A DNA stretch of 40,771 bases from positions 1 through 40,771 of the IMG/VR virus record IMGVR_UViG_3300044998_000126; one strand, 5' to 3'. Origin of the DNA: a virus. Lineage: Duplodnaviria > Caudoviricetes. The notes under the pieces were generated by a model. The model was given only the letters and a program-made list of their open reading frames with translations. It searched no databases and was not told where the DNA came from. Of this stretch, positions 6,827 to 31,262 are shown piece after piece. The translations under genes and the position numbers were made by a program. Each line of letters opens with the position of its first letter. The first letter of the stretch is position 1.

Positions 6827-7447
6827 GTGGCCGCCTGGGACTTCTGGTTTTCTCGCGTGAAGCTGCACGCGCCTGATGCACCTGATCCACTGGTGACGCA
6901 GGCGCTGATTGATGCTTCGCGTGAGTTCTTCCAGCGCACGCGCGCTTGGATGGAGTGGTTGGACCCGGCCACCTCCAAAGCAGGCGCCAGCGTTGAGTAC
7001 GACTTCGATCTACCTTCCCAGACGGAACTGGTGCGAATTGAGCGGGCTACGCGCAATGGCAACCCGCTGGTTGTGCAGTCGTACCGCCAGAAGCAGCGCG
7101 ACTGGAGCCGCGATCAGGGAGACGCCCAGACCCTGGTGTCTCGCGACATGCTCAGCTTTGTGCTGACCGGCAATTTCCCGGTGGGCGACGAGATCCAGGT
7201 CCAGGTGTCGCTGATGCCATCGCTTCGGGCGGCCGGGATTCCCGACTACCTGGCGACTCGCTACCTGATCCCGATCGCAGAAGGCGCCAAGGCGATTGTG
7301 CTGATGACGCCGGATGTCCCTTACACCAGACCAGACATGGCGGCCGTGTCCATGGCCAAGTTTGAAGAGGCCATCGGTTGCTTTTCGTTGAGCGCTTACC
7401 GCGGGCACACCAACCAGGTGCCCCGCGCTTCTGTGAAGTGGTGTTGA
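6827..7447 (+). CDS. Head-tail adaptor-like virion protein
   Basis: GAGG RBS with GTG start; APDAPDPLVTQALIDASREFFQRTRAW N-terminus and IAEGAKAIVL motif resemble podovirus adaptors. Confidence 0.65.
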   Translation: MAAWDFWFSRVKLHAPDAPDPLVTQALIDASREFFQRTRAWMEWLDPATSKAGASVEYDFDLPSQTELVRIERATRNGNPLVVQSYRQKQRDWSRDQGDAQTLVSRDMLSFVLTGNFPVGDEIQVQVSLMPSLRAAGIPDYLATRYLIPIAEGAKAIVLMTPDVPYTRPDMAAVSMAKFEEAIGCFSLSAYRGHTNQVPRASVKWC

Positions 7448-18835: not shown

Positions 18836-18869
18836 CCTTCAGGCTCTGTTGAAATGACGGGGCTTGAGC

Positions 18870-21800
18870 ATGTCAAAACCTTGGGAACGCGACTGGTCCA
18901 CACCTTCTGAATCTTCTGCCGGTCCAAAGCCATGGGAAAGAACCTGGGCGGCTGAAGCGCAGCCTGTCAGTCGCGGTGCAAGGGCTATTGCCTCTGATCT
19001 GGCTAAAGGCTTGGGTGGCGCAGTGGTTTCCGCTGTTGGCGCCGTACCGACTGCCGTAGGCCGAGCGGTACAAGAAGGCGGGGAAACACTTTTTGGGCTC
19101 AGTATGGATGAGGCCCGTCGCCTGGCTGAAGCCGATGGCACCCCTGAGAAGGCGCTGGAGTGGCACGAGCGCGCCAATCGACTCAACCCAATTTCTGCTG
19201 CTGGCCGGGCCATTGAATCAGGTGGGCAGTGGATAGGCCGTCAAGGCGATCGCTTGCGCGATTCACGTTCTGATGAGGCCAAGAAACGGGCTCGTCAATC
19301 CACCCCAGACGGCGATCTCATGCGTCCATCTACTTGGACGATGGGCGAGAACCCAACCGTCGAGGGTGTTGCTCAAGTCACTGCTGATGTGATTGGCAGC
19401 ATGGCTCCACCGATTGCCGCTGCGATTGCAACGCGTGGCCGCTCTGCCACGACGCAGATGCGCGTGGGTGGCGCAACAGTCGCCGGCCAGATTGGCGGCG
19501 CCGCCATGGAAGAGGCAGGCGACTACCTGAGCCAGTTCACCGACGATCAGCTACGACAAGCATCACCCGTGTTTCGTGATCTTGAGGCCAAGGGGTACAG
19601 CGCAGCCGATGCGCGAACCATCCTGAGCCGCGACGCAGAAAACCGAGCCGCCACGTTTGCTGCGCCTGTGGGTTATGTGGGTGGCCAGGCGACCGCCGCG
19701 ATCCTTGGCAAGCCTGGCGAACGGTTGGCCGGTGGTTTTGGAAGCATGGCCGCAAAGGCCGGCATATTGGGTGCTTTGGGTGCAACTGAAGAGGGTTTGC
19801 AGGAGGTTGCTGAAGGCGTGGCCACACGCGCCGGCATCAACAACGCCACGGGCATGGACCGCTCTTTAACCGAAGGCACCTTTGGCGAGTTCATCTTGGG
19901 CGCCAAGGGCGGCGGTGTCACGGGCGCAGGAAAGGGTGTGCTCGAAGGATTGCGTGCACGGCAAAGCGCTGATGGTGCCATCACTGATGATGGGACCAGC
20001 CCGACTGTCACACCGGAAGGCGGAAACATGCCGCCCGCCGCTGCTGCGCCAGAGGCGCCGCTTGTCACATCCCAATCCAGTGATCCGACTTCGCGCTTGG
20101 CGGAGTTGGATATCCTGGCCGAGCAGCGCGACCTGACGCCGGCCGAGCGCCAGGAAACGATTGACCTGCTGACCGCCCTGCAAGATGAGCAAGACGCAAC
20201 GCAAGGAACCGAAGGAGACGCCCCGCAAGCCCCGGCAGTGGAAGCGCCAAAGGCAACGGGAGGCGATGGAGCCGCCGCTGCTGGAGTACCCGCAGAACCT
20301 GCCGCCCCTAATGTGGAAGCCGCTGGGCTAGAGCCCGAGCGTGAGGCGGCCAAGCGCACCAATTTCTGGACCTGGATCGGCACCAAGGGCTACAAGCCCG
20401 CCGATGTCAAGGTCGGCACACCGCTGCACGCCGAGCTGAAGGCGGAGTTTGACGCGCTGCGCAACGGCCAACCGCTGCCGTCCAAGGCGCAGCCGGCCGC
20501 GCCGTCTGTCGATCCGGTGGCCGCCGTCACGGCATGGCGGGAGCGGTTCCCGGCCAAGCCGCCGTCCGGCATGAGTGAGGAGCAATTGCACCAGTTTGCC
20601 GGCGAGCGCCGCAACGCGGATGCGCAACTGGTGCAGCAACTGGAGCCGCAGGCCAATGGGCTGGTGCTGCCCACGGCCACCGGGTTCGGTGGCATCACGC
20701 AAGACCCGAGCGAGGCGGGCAAGTGGCGCATCACCCGCTTTGATGCGGCCATGGAGCCGGTCGGCCATGAGGTCTACAACAGCGCCCGCGAGGCGATCGA
20801 GAACCTGCTGCCGCGCTTCCAGGCGCCGCGGGCCAAGCAGGCAGAGCCCATCCTGCCGCCGCTGCAACCGCAGCCGAGCGTGGACTTGCAAAACCGTGAC
20901 CGCTCGCGCGCTGCGTCCGTGGTGCAGATGAGCGACATCGCCCGCAACCCCGATTACATGCGCCTGGGGCCAAGCCGCACTCCGGACAGCGGGGCGCCGA
21001 TGGTGTTTGCCGTGGGCGACGACGTGAGCCGCATCCCGGCGGAGAACTTCGGCCGCCAGGACGTGGCCGTGATGAGCGACGGCCAGCGTGTGCCGTTCCG
21101 CTACGCCGTGGTGGATGCCACGAAGGTCAACCCGTCGAACTTTGCCGATGGCCGCCAGAACCCGGAGTTCAGCAGCACGACGCCGGGCACGATCAAGGCG
21201 CTGAACAACGGCCGCACCGCAGGTGTTCGTGCCGCGCATGAGATGGGCACGGCCGGCGAGTACGTGGCCGGCATGCAAGCCGACGAGGCGATGCACGGCA
21301 TCCCGGCCGACGTGATCGCGCGCACGCCGAATCCGATGCTGGTGCGCGTCTACTCCGATGCGGCCAACACCGCCAACATGGCCGCCAAGAGCCAGGGCCA
21401 GGGCCTGGGCATGAGCCCGGCCGAGTTGGCCCGCCAGGACGCGCCGCTGATGGATTCGAGCGTGCTGGGCGTGTACGAGCCGGGCGAGATCACCAGCGCG
21501 GCCAACCGCGACTTCGTGCGTGCGTTCATTGGCAAGCTGCAAGCCGCCGGCCAGGACGTGGCCGGGATGATGACTGGCGACGGGCAACTGTCGCAGGACG
21601 GCCGCAAGCGCATCCAGGCCGCGCTGATGCAGGCCGCCTACGGCGATGTTGATCTGGTGGAGGAGATGTTTGACTCCACCGACACCGACATCAAAGCCAT
21701 CGGCGAGGCGCTGAAGGCCGTCGCCGGGCAGTGGGCCAACATGCGCGACTCGGCCCGACTGGGTGTGATCAACCCGCAGGTGGACGTGACCGAGAACCTG

Positions 21801-24800
21801 GTGCAGGCGGTGAACCTGATCCGCAAGGCCCGGCGCGAGCGCATGAGCCTCAAGGATCTGGTGGCGCAGCCCGACCTGATGACGGGCGAGACGCCGCACG
21901 CGCTGACCGTGGGCATACTGCGCGTGTTCTACGATGGCCAGAACTTCACGCGCGCGGTCGGCCGCGACAAAGTGGTGGCCAAGCTGGAGGAATACATCCG
22001 AGCGGCCATGGCCACCTCGGCAGACGCCGGTCTGTTTGGCGGCGAGCCTGTGTCGCCGGCCGACATTTTGGCTACCATCACCGGACAAGGAGCACTGGAT
22101 GCGCAAACTCAACCCGAAGAAGGCCGAGGAGAACCCGCTGGCAGCGGCGATTCTGGGGGCCGTGTTGGTGAAGTACGGCCGGCTGGAGAACAGCCAGACG
22201 CAGATCGAGGCGGGCGAGCGTCTGCTGAAGATCGCGGAGCAGAACCAGGACAAGATGCCGCGCCTGAAGCCCGACAGCAAGATGGCCAAGGCGATCAAGG
22301 CGGCCAAGGAGGCGATGGCGCCGGCCAAGGCGGTACCGCCGGAGGACAGCAAGGAAGCGCTGAAGGCCAAGCCGACAGACTGACCCTGCCTGTCAAAAGC
22401 CCGCTGGACGCCGACGCCAAGAAGCCCGCGCGAAAGGCAAAGGGCGAAGGTGTAAAGGCAAAGCCGGTAGAGGCCGCCAGCGACCAGCCGGCCATCGACC
22501 GCGAGAAGCTGGACAAGGATTTCCGCACCTTCCCGACACAGATCCTGAACAACCTGCTGGAGCGCGGCGAGGCCGCCAAGCTCTACAAGGCCGCGGGCGT
22601 CAAGGGCGCCAGCGCGTTTGGCGACTTGGCCATGGATGACAAGGCCGCCGCCTACGTCAAGTTCGTGCAGCAGGGCGGAAAGCCGGTCGAGAACCTGCCC
22701 AAGGACTACAACGCCTGGGTGAAGAGCGAAGAGCGCGCCGCCGAGGTGCGCCGGCTGCAATCCGACCGCGTGGTGCGCCAGGAAAACGGCAAGCCCTTCA
22801 AGAGCAAGACCAGCGCGCAGCAGTACCAGGAGCGTTACGACCTGACCGGCACGCATGAGGTGGTGGCGGTCGATGGCGGGTTTGAGCTGCGCCAGCTTTC
22901 GCCGGCCGCGCAGGCTGAGCTGAAGCGCAAGGCCGAGGGCCGCGAGAGCTACACCGAGGCGCAGGCTGCCGTGGCCGAGGAAATGGGCATCGGTCAGACG
23001 CCGGATGGCGAGTGGGACGCCACCGACGAGCAGTTTGACGAGATGGAGCGCCGCGTGCAGGCAAGGATGCGCGGCGAGCCTGCCGAACCCCTGCTGACCA
23101 ACCCCACCCGTGAGGACGTGCTGGCCCAGCAGGAGCGCGCCGAAAACGCGCAGGCCGCCGACGAGCGCGAGCAGATCCGCCGCGAGAGCGAAGCGGGCGC
23201 CGGCACCTTCAGCCTGGAGATGCAGGACGGGCGGCAGGACACGACGGCGGACCTGTTCCGCCAGACGGCACCCAAGCCGACCCGCCCGGCGGTCTCTCCC
23301 AACACCATCTTTACCGAGGACGCCGCGGCCAAGGCGCGTGAGCGCCTGCGCAAGAAGCTGTGGCAACTCAACAGCGGCCTCGACCCGGAAATGATGATGG
23401 ACGGCATCACGCTGGCCGGCTATCACATCGAGAAGGGCGCCCGCACCTTCGCCGCCTACGCCCGCGCGATGCTGGCGGACCTGGGCGACGGCGTGCGCCC
23501 CTATTTGAAATCGTGGTACATGGGTGTCAAATACGACCCACGGGCCGCGGGCTTTGACGGCATGGACGACGCCGCCACGGTGGAGTCTGCCGATCTTGAC
23601 GCGCTGACGGCGCAGGAGAATGACGATGTACCAGGTTCCGATGTCCGTGTGGAACGCGATCGCCAAGAGCCAGCCCCTGGGCCAGCCGTGGGCGACGCTG
23701 TTCCGGATGACGCCGGAGGATCTGCCGAGGGGAATCGCGCAGATGGTGGACGCACCCGCCGAGGCGGCCGGCGCGGACAACCGGACGGTGCTGGCGTATC
23801 GACTGGTGGCGCCGTTGCTGGTGGAGAACGAAGCGATCTCGGCCTACCTGGAGGAGACCCGGCAGCCGAACATGCGCGCGTGTCTACCGGAGCTGACTTC
23901 GGTGAACGAGGCAGTGACATTGGCGTCGATGGAGTATCGACTGACCCCATCCCAGCAACGCAAGTTGACGCAGTTGCTACGCGCGGCGATGAGCGGGCAG
24001 AGCGCGAGCAGGCCCAGCGACGCGCTGACCGCATCCCGGTAATTGCCGGCAACGCGGAGAACATCCGCCAGACGCTGCCGTATCTGCTGGCAGGCCAGCA
24101 GGAGGATGTGGCCAAGGCCGAAGCCCGGTTTGCGCAACCGGACGGCTACGGGATGCTGTTCACCAACGGCACCGGCACCGGCAAGACCTTCACCGGCCTC
24201 GGCATCGTCAAGCGCTTCGAGCGCCAGGGCAAGGGCAATGTCCTGATCGTCGTCCCCGACGACAAGATTGCATCCGACTGGATCGAGTCCGGCCGCGCGC
24301 TGGGCCTGACGATCACGGCGCTGCGCGACACCAAGGACGCCGGCCGCGGCATCACGGTGACGACTTACGCCAACCTGGGCGAAAACGACGCGCTGGTGTC
24401 GCGCCAATGGGATCTGTTCGTAGCTGACGAAGCGCACGAGCTGATGAAGTCGGCCGATGGCTATGTGACGAAAGGCCTGGCAGCGCTGCGCGCGCTGTCG
24501 CTGCACCCGGATGGCGCCCACACCCGCTACGAAATGCTCAACCGGCCGGACATTCAGAAGGCGGCCGCCCTGGACGAGCAGATCAAGGTCAACCTGCGCA
24601 TGATGTCCCGCGACGACACCATGGATGTCATGGTGGAGTCGCTGCGCCGGGAGAACCAGCGCATGGAGGCCGAGCTGGCCGCCCTGTACGCCAAGCTGGA
24701 CGCCGCCCGTACCGCGGTGCGCGAGGACGTGAAATCGCGCCAGGGCGCCAGCCGCCCCCGTGCGGTATTCCTGTCGGCCACGCCGTTCGCCTACGAGTTC

Positions 24801-27800
24801 AACATCGACTGGGCCAACGGCTATCTGTTTGATTACAACGAAGGCCAGTCGGACGAGAGCCTGGAGTTCCGCGGCTACAACCAAGGCAGCAACCGCGACC
24901 GCTTCTTCATGACCCACTTCGGGTACACGATGCGGTACAACAAGCTGACTAAGCCGGCCCCGTCCAAGGTGGACACCGGCCTGATGCAGCGGCAGTTCAA
25001 TTCCTGGTTGAAGTCGCGCGGGGTGCTGTCGGCCCGGATGCTGGACGTGCCGGCCGACTACGACCGCAAGTTTGTGCTGGTGGATTCTGCCATCGGCAAC
25101 CGCATTGACGAGGCGCTGTCCTGGCTTGACGAGCAGCGCCTGGCCGACAAGACCGGCGGTTTCAGGCTGCTGCGCGACACCATCGACGAGAAGTTTGACT
25201 ACCTGAGCCGACGCTACCTGCTGGAGGCGATCAAGGCGACGGAATCGGTGCCGATTGTGCGCGAGCACCTGCGCCTGGGCCGCAAGGTCGTTGTGTTCCA
25301 CGACTACAAGAAGGGCGGCGGTTTCAACCCGTTCGACATCAAGCCGTCCGACGCGCCGGCGCTCGATGGCGAGCGCCAATCCGATCAGCAGGCGTTCAAT
25401 GACACGCTGGCCACCTTCCGCGAGAAGTTCAAGGATCTGGTGGACGCCCCGCTGGGGCGGCTGCCGAGCCCGATCGAGGTGTTCAAGCGCGAGTTCCCTG
25501 ACGTTCTGCTGGTCAACGGCGACGAGAAGAAGGCCGACCTGCTGGCGCGCTACAAGAAGTTCCAGGACGACGCGAGCGGCCCGCAGGTGATGCTGGTGCA
25601 GTCGGCCAAGAACAAGGGATGGAGCGGCCACGACACGACGGGCAAGCATCAGCGCGTGCTCATCAACCTGGGCATGCCGACCGCGCCGACCCTGGCCATC
25701 CAGCAGGAGGGACGGATCTACCGCACGGGCCAGGTCAGCAACGCCATCATCCGCTACCTGAACACAGGCACCAACTGGGAGCGCTGGGCGTTTGCCACGA
25801 CGATCGCCAGCCGGGCCAGCACAGCCGAGAACCTGGCCATGGGCGAGCAGGCGCGCGCCCTGAAGGATGCCTTCGTCGCTGTGTTTGAAGAATCGGACGC
25901 CTACCCGCCGGGGCACGAGGGCGAGGGCACAGGCGGCAAGGCGCGCGACGCTGCGGCCAACAACGCCTTGACGGCCTACGACCGCGCCAAGTACTTCTAT
26001 TGGGCAACCCAGAAGAAGAACAGCAAGACCAAGGCGCAGGAGGGCACGGACTACTTTGCCACGCCGGAGCCGGTCGGCCTGAAGATGGCCGAGTGGCTGG
26101 CCCTGCGTGGCGGCGAAGAGGCACTGGAGCCCAGCGCCGGCCATGGCGCGATTGCCCGCTGGCTGCCGGATACGGTCAAGCGCACCGCCATCGAGCCGTC
26201 CGGCGCGCTGCGCGCCCGCCTGGCGATGGTGATGAGCCCGAAGGATGACCGCATCATCGACGGCGTGTTTGAGGACCACCACGTCAGCAACAAGTACGAC
26301 GGGATCGTGATGAACCCGCCGTTCGGGGTGGGCGGCAAGACGGCCATCGAGCACTTGGCCAAGGCGGCTACGCACCTGCGCGACGGAGGCCGCATCGTCG
26401 CGCTGATCCCGACCGGACCGGCCGCAGACAAGCGTTACGAGCAGTGGATGTACGGCACCGAGCAGCGTCCGGTCAAGCCGCTGCTGGAGCATCCGACCCT
26501 GGGCTCGATCTACGCCGGCGACACGGTTCGCACCCGCGCCGCCTGGGCGCCAGAGGGTCGCGTGGTGCGTGCGCGTGATGGCGCGCTGATGGTAAAGGTC
26601 GAGGGGCAGCCCGGAGAGAGCATGGTGTCCCTGGGCGCCGTGACCGAGGTGCAGCCGACAGGCGTGCGAACCCGCGAGGTCCGTCCGGCCGAAGGCATTT
26701 ACACCGTGGGCGAGATCCGACTGCCGCAGGTGACGTTTGAGCGTGCCGGCACAAAGGTGGCCACGCGCATCGTGATCCTGGAGAAACAGTCCGACCGCGA
26801 GCGCGCGCCGAATGCCCGCGCGCCGATCGACCTGACCGATGTCACAGACATTCGGGAGCTATTCGACCGCCTGGAGAGGCTGGAAATGCCCGGCCGCCGC
26901 ATGACGGCCGCGCAAGAGCAGGCCGCAGAGGCCGAGCGTGCCGAGCAGGAGCGCGCCAGGCAGCGCGAGGAAGCCCGCGCCAAAAAGGCCGAGCCGGGTG
27001 CGCCGAAGGCGGCCAACCCCGATGCCGTTGGCACCGTGGACCGGGCTGGCCATGAAATCATCGAGCACGTCACCCAGAAGGGCAAGACGATCCGCGGCAT
27101 CGTGCGCACGGATCTTTTGAAGGAAGAGGCGCAGAAGATCGACCCGTACACCTTCCGCAAGTATGGCGGCTGGTTCATCCGCGAGGTGTATCTCAAGTCT
27201 GACGACGCCCCGATGGCCAGCCGCGGCCGCGCCGGCGGCATGACGGAATCCGCCGTGCGCCAGGTGGCCGACACCATCACGTCACGCTGGACCAAGGCGC
27301 CGACCGTGGTGGTGGTGCCGAACATGCAGGACATGCGCGTGCCGGAGGCCGCGCGCCAGGAGGACGCCCGCCAGCGCGCCGCCGGCGCGACGGGGGTGCC
27401 GCGCGCCTTCTACGACCGCGGCACCGTGTACCTGGTGGCCGATGGTCTGAAGAGCGTCACCGACGCCGCCGAAGCGCTGTTTCACGAGGCGCTGGGCCAC
27501 TACGGGCTGCGCGCCGTGTTCGGCTCCGCGCTGGACGGCATCCTGGACCAGATCGCCGTGGCACGGCCGGACCTGATGCGACCGAAGGCCAAGGAGTACG
27601 GCAAAGATCTGAAGGTGCTGAAGCAGCGCCGCGAGGTGGCCGAGGAAGTCCTGGCCGAAATGGCGCAGACGAAGCCGAACCTGGGATTCGTCAAGCGCGC
27701 GATCGCAGCCATCCGCACCTGGTTGCGCCAGAACGTGCCGGCCCTGAAGGACATGGCGCTGACGGATGCCGAGATCATCAACAACTTCATCCTGCCCGCG

Positions 27801-30800
27801 CGCGGCTGGGTGGAGCGTGGTGAGCGGGCGATGCGGCCGGGTGGGAAGGTGGCGATGAGTCGTGATGGCGCCGACCAGCCGCAAGACCAGACCCAGACCG
27901 AAGCCTTCCGCCGCTGGTTTGGTGACAGCAAGGTGGTGGATGCCGATGGCAACCCGCTGGTGGTGTATCACGGGACGCGGGCTGACATCACTACGTTTGA
28001 CCCTGAACGCGCTGGCTCAAAGACTGATTCTGGTGCGTGGGGCAGAGGAATCTACTTCGCAGCCGATCCCGAATACGCTGGCGCTTATGCGGGGCGGACT
28101 GAGGGATCGAACATCGTTCCGGCGTACATCTCCTTGCAAAACCCGCTTGTCGTGGACGCGCGAGAACGCACGGCGGCTATTCGTGGGATCGGGCTTGAGG
28201 TGCCTCGCGGCGACCCGACGCCCGCGTGGTCGCAGCAATTTGCCAATGCGGTAGCACAACGCGGTTACGATGGGGTGATCGTGACATTGGACGGGGCTCC
28301 GGCGGAGATCGTCGCCTTCCGCCCCGAGCAGATCAAGAGCGCCACCGGCAACCGCGGCACGTTCGATCCCGAGAACCCGGACATCCGCTTTAGCCGCTCC
28401 ACCCTGGGCAACACCCCGCCCACGCCGCCGCAGAACCCAAACGCCTGGCAGAAGCTGAAAGCCAAGGCGCTGGAGCTGACCAACCCGGACGCGATCGAGA
28501 GCCTGATCTACGAGTACCAGGACAAGAACATTGACCTGAAGCGGCTGCGCGATCACATCAAGGAGCTGGGCGGCACGATCACGGACCTGAACGACGCCTA
28601 CCTGGGCGAAGAGCTGTACCACAAGCGCCTGGCCAAGCGGACGCAGGACTTTTTGAGCGAAGAGCTCAAGCCGCTGCTGGCCGACATGCGCGCCCGCGGG
28701 GTGGACATGCCGACGCTGGAGCGCTATCTGCACGCCCGCCATGCGCCCGAGGCCAACCGCGTGCTGGCCGAGCGCAACCCGAATGCCCAGATGATCGAGG
28801 CCGGCAAGGCCAAGGCGCTGGCCGAGGTGAAGGCGCTGGAGGTGCAACTGCAACGCGCCCGCGCGCAGGGCACGGCCACCAAGGCGGTCGAGCAGGCGCT
28901 GGAGCAGGCGCTGGCCGAACGCGACCGCTGGACCGGGGCGCAGGCCTTCAAGGGCACCGAGGCCGAGCGCCTGAGCCTGTCGGGCATGAGCGACGCCGAG
29001 GCGGCCGCTTTCATGGGCGGTCTGCCGGCCGGCCAGAAGGTGCACCTGGAGGCGCTGGCTGCCAGGGTGGATGCGATGCAGGCCAAGACGCTGGAGGTGC
29101 TGGAGAAATATGGCCTGATGGACAAGGCCACGCTGGACGCCTGGCGCAGCACGTACCAGTTCTATGTGCCGCTGCACCGTGACGAAGCCCATCCGGATGC
29201 CGTGAGCCACCCGATCGGGCAGGGCTTCAGCACCAAGGGCGATGCGTCGAAACGCCGCACCGGCTCCAACGAGAAGGTGACGAACATCCTGGCGCACATT
29301 GCCATGCAGCGCGAGGCGGCGCTCACCCGCGGTGAAAAGAACCGCGTGGCCAAGAAGCTGTACCTGATGGCCGCGCAGAACCCGGACCCGGAGATCTGGT
29401 CGGTGGACAAGCCGCCGATGATGAAAACCGTGGACCGGGAGACGGGCTTTGTACGCACGACGGTGGACCCGACGTACCGCAACAAGCCGAACGTGGTGAT
29501 GGTGCGCATCGGCGGCAAGGACCACGCGATCACGTTCAACGAGCGCAACCCGAAGGCGGTGCGGATGGCGCAGTCGATCAAGGGCGCGGACGTGGGCGAC
29601 CTGAACGCCTTTGAGTCGATCATGGGCAAGGCCACCCGCTGGCTGGCCAGCGTCAACACCCAATACAACCCGATCTTCGGCATCATCAACTTCGCCCGTG
29701 ACGTGCAGGCCGCCATCCTGCAACTGAGCACGACACCGCTGAAGGGCCAGGAGCGCGCCGTGGCCGCCTATGTGCCGGCGGCGCTCAAGGGCATCTATGC
29801 CGAGGTGCGCAGCCGCCGCAAGGGGCAGTCTCGCGGCACGGGGCAGTGGGCCAAGCTGTGGGAGGACATGCAGGACGAAGGCGGCACCACCGGATACCGC
29901 GAGCTGTTCATCACGCCGGATGAGCGGGTGAAGGCGCTGACCAAGGAGCTCAACGCGCTGGAGCGCGGCAAGGTATCCGAGGCCGCGCATGCCGTGGTGG
30001 ACTGGCTGTCCGACTACAACGAGACGATGGAGAACGCCGTGCGCCTGGCCGCCTACAAGGTGGCGCTGGACCAGGGCATGAGCAAGGAGCGCGCCGCCAG
30101 CCTGGCCAAGAATCTGACGGTCAACTTCAACCGCCGCGGCCGGCAGACGGCCCGACTGGGTGCGTATTACGCCTTCCTGAATGCCGCGATCCAGGGCACG
30201 ACCCGCATGGTGGAGACGCTGCGCGGGCCGCTGGGCCGCAAGATCATGCTGGGGGGTGTTATGCTGGGCGCCGTGAATGCCTTGATCGGCATGGCCATGA
30301 TGGGCGGCGACGACGAAGAGGACAACTGGGAGAAGATCCCCGACTTTGTGAAGGAGCGCAGCCTCATCGTCCCGCTGGGGCGCGAGGACTACCTGGCCAT
30401 CCCCATGCCGCTTGGCTATCACGTGTTCCCGAACCTGGGCCGCAAGGCGGTGGAGATGATGATGCACGACGATCCGACCAAGGGCGTCGGCAGCCACATT
30501 GCGGAGATGCTGCGCATCACGCTGGATGCATTCAACCCGCTGGGCGGATCGGAGAACCTGGCGCAGATGGTGACGCCGACGCCGTTCGACCCGGCCGTCG
30601 CGCTGATGATGAACCGCGACTGGACGGGCAAGCCGATCTACCGCGAGGACAACAGCAACCTGGACCCAACGCCGGGCCACCAGCGCACCAAGGACACCGC
30701 GAGCGCCTTCAGCAAGGCCGTGTCCGAGGCGCTGAACAAGATCACGGGCGGCACGGACTACCAACCGGGCGCCGTGAGCGTGACGCCGGACCAGATCGAC

Positions 30801-31262
30801 TACGTGATCGGGCAGATCACCGGCGGCCTGGGCCGCGAGATCCTGAAACTGGAGAACTCGATCACGGCCCCGCTGACCGGAGACGAGTTGCCGGCCTACA
30901 AGATCCCCCTGGTGGGCCGTCTATACGGCAACACCCGCGGGCCGGCCAACAACGCGGAGCTGTTCTACGAGCACGTGCGCGAGCTCAACCAGATCGAGAA
31001 CGAGATCCGCGGCCGCGCCCGAGACGGCGGCGATGTGGCGGGCTACATGGCCGAGGAACCGCTGTCCGCTCTGGTTGGCATGGGCAACGCGGCGGAGAAC
31101 CAGATCCGCAAGCTGCGACAGTACCGCGCGGAGGTGGTGCGCCGCGCCGAACCGGGCTACCAGGATGAGGTCAAGCGCATCAACGAGCAGATGGGCGAGG
31201 TGATGAAGCTGCTCAACCAGGAGGTGCGGCGGGCGAAGATGGAGGCGGCGGCTGCCCAGTAA
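18870..31262 (+). CDS. Giant polyvalent DarB-like internal virion protein (~4130 aa): ddrB-like ParB domain, SF2 helicase, N6-adenine methyltransferase, zincin-like peptidase, ART-PolyVal, LPD38-like C-terminus
   Basis: LQNRDRSR/NNGRT (~20880-21450); GTGTGKT (24168), DEAH (24426), SAT, QQEGRIYR; EPSAGHG and NPPF (26313); HEALGH (27483); YHGT...GIYFA...GYDGVI...EIVAF (~27890-28400); WEKIPDFVKERSLIVP...IPMPLG. Confidence 0.9.
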   Translation: MSKPWERDWSTPSESSAGPKPWERTWAAEAQPVSRGARAIASDLAKGLGGAVVSAVGAVPTAVGRAVQEGGETLFGLSMDEARRLAEADGTPEKALEWHERANRLNPISAAGRAIESGGQWIGRQGDRLRDSRSDEAKKRARQSTPDGDLMRPSTWTMGENPTVEGVAQVTADVIGSMAPPIAAAIATRGRSATTQMRVGGATVAGQIGGAAMEEAGDYLSQFTDDQLRQASPVFRDLEAKGYSAADARTILSRDAENRAATFAAPVGYVGGQATAAILGKPGERLAGGFGSMAAKAGILGALGATEEGLQEVAEGVATRAGINNATGMDRSLTEGTFGEFILGAKGGGVTGAGKGVLEGLRARQSADGAITDDGTSPTVTPEGGNMPPAAAAPEAPLVTSQSSDPTSRLAELDILAEQRDLTPAERQETIDLLTALQDEQDATQGTEGDAPQAPAVEAPKATGGDGAAAAGVPAEPAAPNVEAAGLEPEREAAKRTNFWTWIGTKGYKPADVKVGTPLHAELKAEFDALRNGQPLPSKAQPAAPSVDPVAAVTAWRERFPAKPPSGMSEEQLHQFAGERRNADAQLVQQLEPQANGLVLPTATGFGGITQDPSEAGKWRITRFDAAMEPVGHEVYNSAREAIENLLPRFQAPRAKQAEPILPPLQPQPSVDLQNRDRSRAASVVQMSDIARNPDYMRLGPSRTPDSGAPMVFAVGDDVSRIPAENFGRQDVAVMSDGQRVPFRYAVVDATKVNPSNFADGRQNPEFSSTTPGTIKALNNGRTAGVRAAHEMGTAGEYVAGMQADEAMHGIPADVIARTPNPMLVRVYSDAANTANMAAKSQGQGLGMSPAELARQDAPLMDSSVLGVYEPGEITSAANRDFVRAFIGKLQAAGQDVAGMMTGDGQLSQDGRKRIQAALMQAAYGDVDLVEEMFDSTDTDIKAIGEALKAVAGQWANMRDSARLGVINPQVDVTENLVQAVNLIRKARRERMSLKDLVAQPDLMTGETPHALTVGILRVFYDGQNFTRAVGRDKVVAKLEEYIRAAMATSADAGLFGGEPVSPADILATITGQGALDAQTQPEEGRGEPAGSGDSGGRVGEVRPAGEQPDADRGGRASAEDRGAEPGQDAAPEARQQDGQGDQGGQGGDGAGQGGTAGGQQGSAEGQADRLTLPVKSPLDADAKKPARKAKGEGVKAKPVEAASDQPAIDREKLDKDFRTFPTQILNNLLERGEAAKLYKAAGVKGASAFGDLAMDDKAAAYVKFVQQGGKPVENLPKDYNAWVKSEERAAEVRRLQSDRVVRQENGKPFKSKTSAQQYQERYDLTGTHEVVAVDGGFELRQLSPAAQAELKRKAEGRESYTEAQAAVAEEMGIGQTPDGEWDATDEQFDEMERRVQARMRGEPAEPLLTNPTREDVLAQQERAENAQAADEREQIRRESEAGAGTFSLEMQDGRQDTTADLFRQTAPKPTRPAVSPNTIFTEDAAAKARERLRKKLWQLNSGLDPEMMMDGITLAGYHIEKGARTFAAYARAMLADLGDGVRPYLKSWYMGVKYDPRAAGFDGMDDAATVESADLDALTAQENDDVPGSDVRVERDRQEPAPGPAVGDAVPDDAGGSAEGNRADGGRTRRGGRRGQPDGAGVSTGGAVAGGERSDLGLPGGDPAAEHARVSTGADFGERGSDIGVDGVSTDPIPATQVDAVATRGDERAEREQAQRRADRIPVIAGNAENIRQTLPYLLAGQQEDVAKAEARFAQPDGYGMLFTNGTGTGKTFTGLGIVKRFERQGKGNVLIVVPDDKIASDWIESGRALGLTITALRDTKDAGRGITVTTYANLGENDALVSRQWDLFVADEAHELMKSADGYVTKGLAALRALSLHPDGAHTRYEMLNRPDIQKAAALDEQIKVNLRMMSRDDTMDVMVESLRRENQRMEAELAALYAKLDAARTAVREDVKSRQGASRPRAVFLSATPFAYEFNIDWANGYLFDYNEGQSDESLEFRGYNQGSNRDRFFMTHFGYTMRYNKLTKPAPSKVDTGLMQRQFNSWLKSRGVLSARMLDVPADYDRKFVLVDSAIGNRIDEALSWLDEQRLADKTGGFRLLRDTIDEKFDYLSRRYLLEAIKATESVPIVREHLRLGRKVVVFHDYKKGGGFNPFDIKPSDAPALDGERQSDQQAFNDTLATFREKFKDLVDAPLGRLPSPIEVFKREFPDVLLVNGDEKKADLLARYKKFQDDASGPQVMLVQSAKNKGWSGHDTTGKHQRVLINLGMPTAPTLAIQQEGRIYRTGQVSNAIIRYLNTGTNWERWAFATTIASRASTAENLAMGEQARALKDAFVAVFEESDAYPPGHEGEGTGGKARDAAANNALTAYDRAKYFYWATQKKNSKTKAQEGTDYFATPEPVGLKMAEWLALRGGEEALEPSAGHGAIARWLPDTVKRTAIEPSGALRARLAMVMSPKDDRIIDGVFEDHHVSNKYDGIVMNPPFGVGGKTAIEHLAKAATHLRDGGRIVALIPTGPAADKRYEQWMYGTEQRPVKPLLEHPTLGSIYAGDTVRTRAAWAPEGRVVRARDGALMVKVEGQPGESMVSLGAVTEVQPTGVRTREVRPAEGIYTVGEIRLPQVTFERAGTKVATRIVILEKQSDRERAPNARAPIDLTDVTDIRELFDRLERLEMPGRRMTAAQEQAAEAERAEQERARQREEARAKKAEPGAPKAANPDAVGTVDRAGHEIIEHVTQKGKTIRGIVRTDLLKEEAQKIDPYTFRKYGGWFIREVYLKSDDAPMASRGRAGGMTESAVRQVADTITSRWTKAPTVVVVPNMQDMRVPEAARQEDARQRAAGATGVPRAFYDRGTVYLVADGLKSVTDAAEALFHEALGHYGLRAVFGSALDGILDQIAVARPDLMRPKAKEYGKDLKVLKQRREVAEEVLAEMAQTKPNLGFVKRAIAAIRTWLRQNVPALKDMALTDAEIINNFILPARGWVERGERAMRPGGKVAMSRDGADQPQDQTQTEAFRRWFGDSKVVDADGNPLVVYHGTRADITTFDPERAGSKTDSGAWGRGIYFAADPEYAGAYAGRTEGSNIVPAYISLQNPLVVDARERTAAIRGIGLEVPRGDPTPAWSQQFANAVAQRGYDGVIVTLDGAPAEIVAFRPEQIKSATGNRGTFDPENPDIRFSRSTLGNTPPTPPQNPNAWQKLKAKALELTNPDAIESLIYEYQDKNIDLKRLRDHIKELGGTITDLNDAYLGEELYHKRLAKRTQDFLSEELKPLLADMRARGVDMPTLERYLHARHAPEANRVLAERNPNAQMIEAGKAKALAEVKALEVQLQRARAQGTATKAVEQALEQALAERDRWTGAQAFKGTEAERLSLSGMSDAEAAAFMGGLPAGQKVHLEALAARVDAMQAKTLEVLEKYGLMDKATLDAWRSTYQFYVPLHRDEAHPDAVSHPIGQGFSTKGDASKRRTGSNEKVTNILAHIAMQREAALTRGEKNRVAKKLYLMAAQNPDPEIWSVDKPPMMKTVDRETGFVRTTVDPTYRNKPNVVMVRIGGKDHAITFNERNPKAVRMAQSIKGADVGDLNAFESIMGKATRWLASVNTQYNPIFGIINFARDVQAAILQLSTTPLKGQERAVAAYVPAALKGIYAEVRSRRKGQSRGTGQWAKLWEDMQDEGGTTGYRELFITPDERVKALTKELNALERGKVSEAAHAVVDWLSDYNETMENAVRLAAYKVALDQGMSKERAASLAKNLTVNFNRRGRQTARLGAYYAFLNAAIQGTTRMVETLRGPLGRKIMLGGVMLGAVNALIGMAMMGGDDEEDNWEKIPDFVKERSLIVPLGREDYLAIPMPLGYHVFPNLGRKAVEMMMHDDPTKGVGSHIAEMLRITLDAFNPLGGSENLAQMVTPTPFDPAVALMMNRDWTGKPIYREDNSNLDPTPGHQRTKDTASAFSKAVSEALNKITGGTDYQPGAVSVTPDQIDYVIGQITGGLGREILKLENSITAPLTGDELPAYKIPLVGRLYGNTRGPANNAELFYEHVRELNQIENEIRGRARDGGDVAGYMAEEPLSALVGMGNAAENQIRKLRQYRAEVVRRAEPGYQDEVKRINEQMGEVMKLLNQEVRRAKMEAAAAQ
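20185..20331 (+). CDS. Possible nested 48-aa ORF in the +1 frame of the giant gene
   Basis: MSKTQRKEPK...LLEYPQNLPPLMWKPLG*. The +1 codons end mostly in G/C while host-frame codons become A/T-ending. No clear RBS. Confidence 0.35.
   Translation: MSKTQRKEPKETPRKPRQWKRQRQREAMEPPLLEYPQNLPPLMWKPLG
22099..22383 (+). CDS. Nested 94-aa protein overprinted in the +1 frame of the giant gene
   Basis: AAGGAG RBS 22087-22092 with 6-nt spacing; protein-like helical sequence; host frame becomes G/E/Q/D low complexity over this span. Confidence 0.75.
   Translation: MRKLNPKKAEENPLAAAILGAVLVKYGRLENSQTQIEAGERLLKIAEQNQDKMPRLKPDSKMAKAIKAAKEAMAPAKAVPPEDSKEALKAKPTD
23626..24042 (+). CDS. Nested 138-aa protein overprinted in the +1 frame of the giant gene
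   Basis: AGGAG RBS 23614-23618 with 7-nt spacing to ATG 23626; globular composition and GC3-rich codons; host frame G/R/D-rich over the same span. Confidence 0.8.
   Translation: MYQVPMSVWNAIAKSQPLGQPWATLFRMTPEDLPRGIAQMVDAPAEAAGADNRTVLAYRLVAPLLVENEAISAYLEETRQPNMRACLPELTSVNEAVTLASMEYRLTPSQQRKLTQLLRAAMSGQSASRPSDALTASR

What the first reader, a model, noticed from the sequence alone, without database searches (positions are those of the whole stretch)
22087..22383. Nested ORF B: 94-aa protein with a strong RBS right after the ddrB/ParB-like module
Seen: AAGGAG-CACTGG-ATG, then MRKLNPKKAEENPLAAAILGAVLVKYGRLENSQTQIEAGERLLKIAEQNQDKMPRLKPDSKMAKAIKAAKEAM... with amphipathic helices and a Lys-rich tail. 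Its start and stop match the borders of the host-frame GDQGGQGGDG-type linker. Inference: cognate inhibitor or regulator of the upstream domain.
Basis: partly seen in the sequence, partly recalled or inferred. Interest (0 to 1): 0.8.

Follow-up and report, generated by a model that had tools for sequence, protein, structure and literature searches.

The report
Hidden partner genes inside phage giant
A 94-codon gene lies one base out of frame inside a giant phage gene, is conserved right behind the same ParB-like module in related phages and also occurs as a free gene on integrative elements; it likely encodes a small partner that restrains that module, which is untested.

Summary
ORF B (22099-22383, AAGGAG 6 nt upstream) is in the +1 frame of a 4,132-codon polyvalent phage gene, just after its DdrB-like ParB module. 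Openness alone means little (P=0.95 by chance), but codon bias follows ORF B, and in close pairs pN/pS is 0.15 for ORF B against 7.6 for the host frame. Of 45 loci with the whole module, 39 carry a clear homologue at this spot, 3 a divergent one, and one clade of 3 none. P1 DdrB and other distant modules lack it. Three homologues stand alone behind integrases (one frameshifted), with the host frame closed, so the protein is selected for itself. Two further nested families track two helicase types (9 of 9, 6 of 6, 0 of 24). The conserved core is a hydrophobic helical hairpin with no family or fold match. Best reading: a cognate partner that keeps the module off during late expression (0.4). Binding and expression are untested; a module-independent role is a close rival. 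The SD is missing in 10 of 26 homologues. Not found in print; this scan noted similar nested genes on other DNA.

The parts
22087..22092 (+). Shine-Dalgarno motif AAGGAG, 6 nt before the ATG
   Evidence: anti-SD duplex -7.7 kcal/mol, top 3% of the module background; start region less structured than every background window
22099..22383 (+). ORF B, 94 aa, +1 frame; conserved core aa 9-49 is a predicted helical hairpin (H13-29, H33-48), then helix 61-73 and a variable Lys/Pro tail
20886..22085 (+). DdrB-like ParB module of the host protein (ParB/Srx part plus helical part), the constant upstream neighbour of ORF B
   Evidence: PF18763 E=9.7e-17; tblastn to P1 DdrB 25% over query 48-393
22098..22385 (+). 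Host-frame G/D/Q/A-rich linker overlapping ORF B; open, but not conserved as protein
   Evidence: host pN/pS 7.55 in close pairs, 1.68 over 12 disjoint pairs
18864..31262 (+). Host gene: 4,132-codon polyvalent (DarB-like) protein with ddrB-ParB, SF2 helicase, methyltransferase, ART-PolyVal and LPD38, at the end of the virion gene block
23626..24042 (+). ORF C, 138 aa, second +1 nested gene with AGGAG, upstream of the helicase; parallel case
   Evidence: present in 9 of 9 loci with this helicase type and in 0 of the 30 others

Best explanation
ORF B is a conserved gene written in the +1 frame of the linker behind the DdrB-like ParB module of a giant phage protein, and its product likely binds that module and would keep it inactive while the giant protein is made late in infection. 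Shown: frame, start signals, codon bias, purifying selection, fixed position behind the module, free-standing copies. Inferred: translation from its own start on the late mRNA; a two-helix hairpin (predicted) whose surplus hydrophobic face docks on the module; the module is a nucleotide-consuming or DNA-acting effector (Iyer et al. prediction) that is packaged and injected without ORF B, so it acts only in the next cell. Being nested just behind the module means that module and partner move as one cassette when domains are shuffled. Integrative elements that carry ORF B alone would use it as orphan immunity against an injected module.
For: Real gene: (GC3; pN/pS 0.15 vs 7.55 in 6 close pairs; L047/L016 10 synonymous and 0 non-synonymous changes in ORF B, 1 and 9 in the host frame); start codon column invariant in 49 of 49 aligned proteins; 23 of 26 nested starts less structured than 95% of the module background. 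Tie to the module: 39 of 45 clear hits 13-127 nt behind the module plus 3 divergent hits; the next 200 host residues fall in 14 clusters among 34 ORF B-bearing loci; ORF B-centred searches gave 12 distinct loci nested behind the module, 1 behind its last helix only, 3 free, none behind another domain. Parallels: ORF C with one helicase type 9 of 9, family D with another 6 of 6, neither in 24 loci without them, on scattered branches of the module tree. Orphans: L030, L032, L089 directly behind tyrosine integrases, host frame closed, pN/pS 0.43-0.52 among them, not one clade; no module found in genome G455. Helix 1 has almost no charged columns at positions 13-24, yet no member reaches a membrane-helix score (0 of 49).
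Against: One well-supported clade (L017, L048, L055; 100/100) keeps an intact module without any linker ORF. None of 10 distant annotated phage modules (P1, D6, Acinetobacter, Alcaligenes, Aeromonas, Shewanella, Dartukuta, two spring-water podoviruses; 23-33% identity) has an ORF B homologue behind it. P1 DdrB is non-essential and is listed as aiding DarB loading, not as a toxin (PMC10695390, PMC9024508). Tight linkage alone also makes neighbours travel together. The window/L012 pair shows pN/pS near 1 in ORF B. Orphan copies also fit a role that needs no module, and L089 has a one-base shift near its start. No SD in 10 of 26 nested homologues.
Confidence: 0.4

Rival explanations
1. ORF B is a real but module-independent accessory protein (anti-defence, exclusion or host-modulating) parked in a free linker, like comS in srfAB; it travels with the module by linkage only.
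For: Free copies are under purifying selection on elements without the module; ORF B is intact with GGAGG in a decayed prophage whose module is half lost (L091); module works without it in one clade and in P1. comS precedent: PMC12915044.
Against: Never found nested behind another domain although these genes have many linkers; families C and D are equally domain-specific.
Confidence: 0.3
2. ORF B binds the module or giant protein as a folding or packaging chaperone (compare P1 Ulx, which aids DarB loading) rather than as an inhibitor.
For: Same linkage data; hydrophobic hairpin; P1 uses small helpers for Dar loading (PMC9024508, PMC10695390).
Against: Gives no reason for orphan copies on integrative elements without virion genes seen nearby.
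Confidence: 0.18
3. ORF B is read by a +1 frameshift as an alternative C-terminal end of the module, giving a shorter host protein.
For: No SD in one clade of 10; one 202-aa database protein joins ORF B to a downstream host domain (P0033).
Against: A +1 stop lies 1-9 codons before the ATG in 14 of 26 nested loci; start column invariant; free copies start at the same Met.
Confidence: 0.06
4. A chance open frame produced by a linker without hydrophobic residues.
For: Openness has P=0.95 under the host-linker null; a uniform-codon null also gives the same hydrophobic fraction.
Against: Selection acts on the +1 frame, not the host frame; free-standing homologues exist where the host frame has stops.
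Confidence: 0.04

Closest known systems
Polyvalent proteins with a DdrB-like ParB domain (Iyer et al. 2017, PMC5512222; section 15 and passages read)
   Same: The host gene is one: ddrB-ParB, SF2 helicase, methyltransferase, ART-PolyVal, LPD38, in a late virion block.
   Different: The main text has no occurrence of 'overlap' or 'linker', and 'nested' only in another sense in the passage shown; no nested genes or cognate inhibitors are described in what I read. The paper's FTP supplements were not seen.
Phage P1 iddB, 'internal to ddrB' (NC_005856; PMC10695390 passages)
   Same: An annotated gene inside a ddrB gene, unknown function, non-essential.
   Different: Antisense, inside the module, 132 codons; not the positional or sequence equivalent.
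Bacillus subtilis comS inside srfAB (PMC12915044, passages)
   Same: Small protein-binding regulator encoded in another frame inside a giant multidomain gene and co-transcribed with it.
   Different: ComS acts on MecA/ClpCP, not on its host gene's product; no family of domain-specific nested genes.
Embedded Rz/Rz1 spanin genes (PMC9144972 passage)
   Same: Nested gene whose product partners the host gene's product.
   Different: Rz1 is a lipoprotein; ORF B has no membrane-helix score and sits in a linker between enzyme domains.
Toxin-immunity pairs and orphan immunity genes of polymorphic toxin systems (recalled, not retrieved)
   Same: Small gene directly behind an effector domain, moving with it, with orphan copies on mobile elements.
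   Different: Here the effector is an internal domain, so the partner is in an overlapping frame; toxicity and neutralisation are untested; no sequence or fold match.

Membership tests
Nested (out-of-frame, same-strand) protein-coding gene | Own start codon and initiation signal conserved | tested here: met
   Start invariant 49 of 49; SD in top 10% of background in 15 of 26, unstructured start in 23 of 26
Nested (out-of-frame, same-strand) protein-coding gene | Purifying selection in its own frame | tested here: met
   pN/pS 0.15 close pairs, 0.55 over 12 disjoint pairs, host frame 7.55 and 1.68; window/L012 pair near 1
Nested (out-of-frame, same-strand) protein-coding gene | Translated in vivo | not testable with these tools
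   Only assembled contigs of RNA libraries were available
Polyvalent protein (host gene) | Several conflict domains in one polypeptide in a late virion block | tested here: met
DdrB-like ParB domain (host module) | Profile match and conserved Arg and Asn/Asp motifs | tested here: met
   PF18763 61.7 bits over cut-off 27.6; NNGR Arg and SN invariant in 28 rows; segment order differs from P1 DdrB
Cognate immunity / type II antitoxin | Gene adjacent to and co-inherited with the effector | tested here: met
   42 of 45 loci; absent in one clade and in distant modules
Cognate immunity / type II antitoxin | Effector is toxic without it | not testable with these tools
   Needs expression tests; a clade with intact module and no ORF B argues for caution
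Cognate immunity / type II antitoxin | Direct binding and neutralisation | not testable with these tools
   Needs pull-down and rescue experiments
Any described protein family or fold | Profile or structural match | tested here: inconclusive
   Pfam, PHROGs, Atlas, PDB and BFVD searches; see Tried and rejected
Rz1-type embedded spanin | Membrane or lipoprotein signal, inside Rz | tested here: not met
   Max 19-residue hydropathy 0.89, 0 of 49 at 1.6 or more; no Cys in ORF B; host is not Rz

The most novel reading that the evidence does not exclude
Giant injected phage proteins carry their own set of domain-specific inhibitors written in the +1 frame of their linkers (B for the ParB module, C and D for two helicases, E for a phosphoribosyltransferase), so each effector domain moves with its off-switch; satellites and islands collect these hidden genes as orphan immunity against injected phage proteins.
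Probability: 0.25. Interest if true: 0.9.

Novelty: new variant of a known kind. Interest (0 to 1): 0.72.

Why it matters
Gene callers annotate these 10-13 kb genes as one protein and miss the nested genes; their odd G/D/Q-rich 'linkers' are the shadow of a second reading frame. If the nested products are cognate partners, they explain how a phage can make nucleotide- or DNA-attacking virion proteins without harming its own production, give ready reagents to find the unknown activity of DdrB-like ParB domains, and point to a class of small anti-phage genes on satellites. Host-silent stop codons make it directly testable.

Tried and rejected
Complex prediction of module (28-row alignment) with ORF B (49 rows): score 0.00 in two runs, verdict 'no answer', no evidence either way. 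No family for ORF B in Pfam (4 single-member hits among 49, E 0.009-0.04), PHROGs or the ESM Atlas. Fold searches of the ORF B model: best Z 5.3 over 42 residues, rmsd 2.0, a common hairpin; no BFVD match at E 0.001. Fold searches of the module model found nothing significant; ParB and KorB appear only as weak rows. No ORF B homologue in 50,697 phage records or, with the L032 copy, 72,556 plasmids. Search for longer fused forms: none among 7,995 candidates, weak evidence. First viral scan with the single protein found nothing. RNA-library runs: four laid, only scattered contigs, cannot show expression. No sigma-70-like promoter at 21500-22600. The three modules without ORF B have ASH where ORF B-bearing ones have PSN, but this is one event and L077 has ASH with a divergent ORF B, so I do not use it. 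P1 iddB rejected as the equivalent. Signal peptide or membrane anchor rejected. ORF B in GTDB samples: 3 of 401 and 4 of 401 genomes, 1 of 9 in G455's family. Paper searches that found no description of nested genes in polyvalent proteins.

Full report
Setting. The window is a 40.8-kb virus record with portal, capsid, tail-fibre, internal virion and acetyltransferase genes, followed by a 4,132-codon ORF (18864-31262) with ddrB-ParB, SF2 helicase, methyltransferase, ART-PolyVal and LPD38 matches: a polyvalent protein in the sense of Iyer et al. (PMC5512222; I read section 15 and searched passages). The closest named relative is a prophage in Extensimonas vulgaris, 89% identical in the module, so the host is likely a betaproteobacterium (inference).

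Observation. AAGGAG (22087-92), six bases, ATG 22099, TGA 22383, 94 aa, +1 frame. Across the ORF the GC-rich codon position moves from the host's third to ORF B's third: host GC3 0.41 against 0.89+-0.03 in 20,000 recodings with the host's own codon usage; ORF B GC3 0.93. The open frame itself is not evidence: it stays open in 95% of those recodings (63% with uniform codons). I tested this because an earlier scan note (e1-6746629) raised it for another locus.

Conservation. A word-based search gave 14 homologues at 62-90% identity, six of them 94 aa; a profile search gave 30 representatives at 50% clustering. Scans with the module gave loci for an unbiased test. Of 50 loci examined, 5 were dropped (L050, L060, L074, L076, L078: module incomplete in the match or no downstream DNA); duplicates L015, L029, L034 and truncated L013 were not entered. 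Of the 45 left (42 different modules), 39 have an ORF B hit in the +1 frame 13-127 nt behind the module. A wider profile adds L077 (E 4e-5), L057 (5e-4) and weakly L045 (0.012) among 92 segments. L017, L048 and L055 have none; they form one clade (100/100) inside ORF B-bearing branches, so probably one loss. Ten distant annotated phage modules, P1 DdrB among them, have no homologue there; Dartukuta has a different 56-codon +1 ORF at the spot. P1's annotated iddB is antisense and inside the module.

Which frame is selected. On 41 core codons of 26 nested copies, pairs under 15% divergence (6 pairs) give pN/pS 0.15 for ORF B and 7.55 for the host frame; 12 disjoint pairs give 0.55 and 1.68; values are uncorrected counts and approach 0.8 and 1.3 at high divergence. 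The window/L012 pair is an exception, near 1. An SD in the top tenth of background is present in 15 of 26; one clade of 10 has A/C-rich leaders instead; 23 of 26 starts are less structured than 95% of module windows (my note said 22, the output gives 23), though Lys/Pro-rich N-termini favour that by composition.

Free-standing copies. ORF B-centred searches returned 12 distinct loci nested behind the module, one remnant with only its last helix (L033), and three free copies. L030 and L032 are 74-aa genes directly behind a tyrosine integrase, with stops in the former host frame; L032 also has AlpA and a CHC2 zinc-finger gene, an arrangement I recall from phage satellites. L089 follows an integrase only 29% identical to L032's and has a one-base shift near its start; its genome showed no module (completeness not given). 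The three are not one clade and show pN/pS 0.43-0.52 (short alignment, weak tree). This settles that the protein is selected for itself, and it cuts both ways on function.

Tie to the module. In one search (39 loci; three identical duplicates, L053, L045 and L046 left out) the host sequence after ORF B fell into 14 clusters among 34 ORF B-bearing loci, while the upstream neighbour never changed; low-complexity linkers inflate that count. ORF C (23626-24042) was present in 9 of 9 loci with one helicase motif, an unrelated family D in 6 of 6 with another, and neither in the other 24 (within about 4 kb of flank). Helicase and ORF C are gained or lost together between close sister modules (window vs L012, L037 vs L028, L063 vs L068). 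A fourth family (E) overlaps the tail of a phosphoribosyltransferase-like domain (my reading of its motif) in L065 and has homologues next to the orphan ORF B in L032 and 2.3 kb from it in L094 (E 2-3e-5 among 16,032 segments).

Protein. AlphaFold2 on 49 sequences gives pLDDT 85 with helices 13-29, 33-48 and 61-73. Conservation is confined to the hairpin (P13, L19, L23, L42, A46); positions 13-24 are nearly free of charge, more than one partner helix could cover (inference), yet no member looks like a membrane helix. The Lys-rich tail is dispensable.

Mechanism. Shown: gene, selection, position, orphans. Inferred: ORF B is translated from the late mRNA, binds the module and holds it off until the giant protein is packaged; orphans protect against an injected module (0.40). 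Rivals: module-independent accessory like comS (0.30; PMC12915044 passages), chaperone like Ulx (0.18; PMC9024508 and PMC10695390 passages), frameshift extension (0.06), chance (0.04). The module's activity is itself only predicted (NTP sensing or degradation, or DNase; PMC5512222), and P1 DdrB is listed as non-essential and aiding DarB loading.

Novelty. Nine paper searches found no description of nested genes in polyvalent proteins; the library lacks most subscription journals and I did not see Iyer's FTP supplements. This scan had noted similar nested genes beside ddrB-ParB on other DNA, with conflicting views on the tie; none was returned by sequence. Embedded genes are a known kind; a set of domain-specific ones with orphan copies on integrative elements is, as far as I found, a new variant. 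Interest 0.72.

Noticed in passing
window 23626-24042 (+): ORF C, 138-aa +1 nested gene before the helicase; homologues in 9 of 9 loci with this helicase type.
   Followed up: partly
window 20185-20331 (+): 48-codon +1 ORF upstream of the module, GC3 about 0.9; similar ORFs ending in a shared motif in L028, L037, L053 and L005, absent from most module loci.
   Followed up: partly
L011:11317-11766 (+): Family D, 149-aa +1 nested gene with AAGGAG between methyltransferase and a second helicase type; 6 of 6 such loci.
   Followed up: partly
L065 about 6939-7187; L032:1753-1929; L094:5688-5876: Family E small ORFs: nested over a phosphoribosyltransferase-like tail in L065, free in L032 right after orphan ORF B; P0019 is a B+E fusion.
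   Followed up: partly
window 20886-21250: The module is permuted relative to P1 DdrB: the QNRDR...GAPMV segment precedes the YAVV...SN segment, the reverse of P1 and D6; Dartukuta shares the window's order.
   Followed up: no
L019:3600-3770 (Dartukuta, MW749009.1): Unannotated 56-codon +1 ORF with GGAG and GC3 0.82 right behind its ddrB-ParB module, unrelated to ORF B by profile.
   Followed up: no
L091 (G603:C2 about 255400-256230): Decayed prophage piece: half a module, host frame broken on both sides, ORF B intact with GGAGG.
   Followed up: partly
window 18864-20330: The first 490 codons of the giant gene have low GC3 (0.46-0.70 vs 0.9) and differ wholly between relatives, suggesting a swapped N-terminal region.
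   Followed up: no
window 27859-28254: GC3 dip over the ART-PolyVal domain with a 131-codon +1 frame lacking an SD; may be recent acquisition or another nested gene.
   Followed up: no
L020:3628-3885; L025:3618-3971; L027:3898-4455: Where the module ends its protein (Acinetobacter phages, D6), unrelated low-GC small genes follow as separate ORFs.
   Followed up: no
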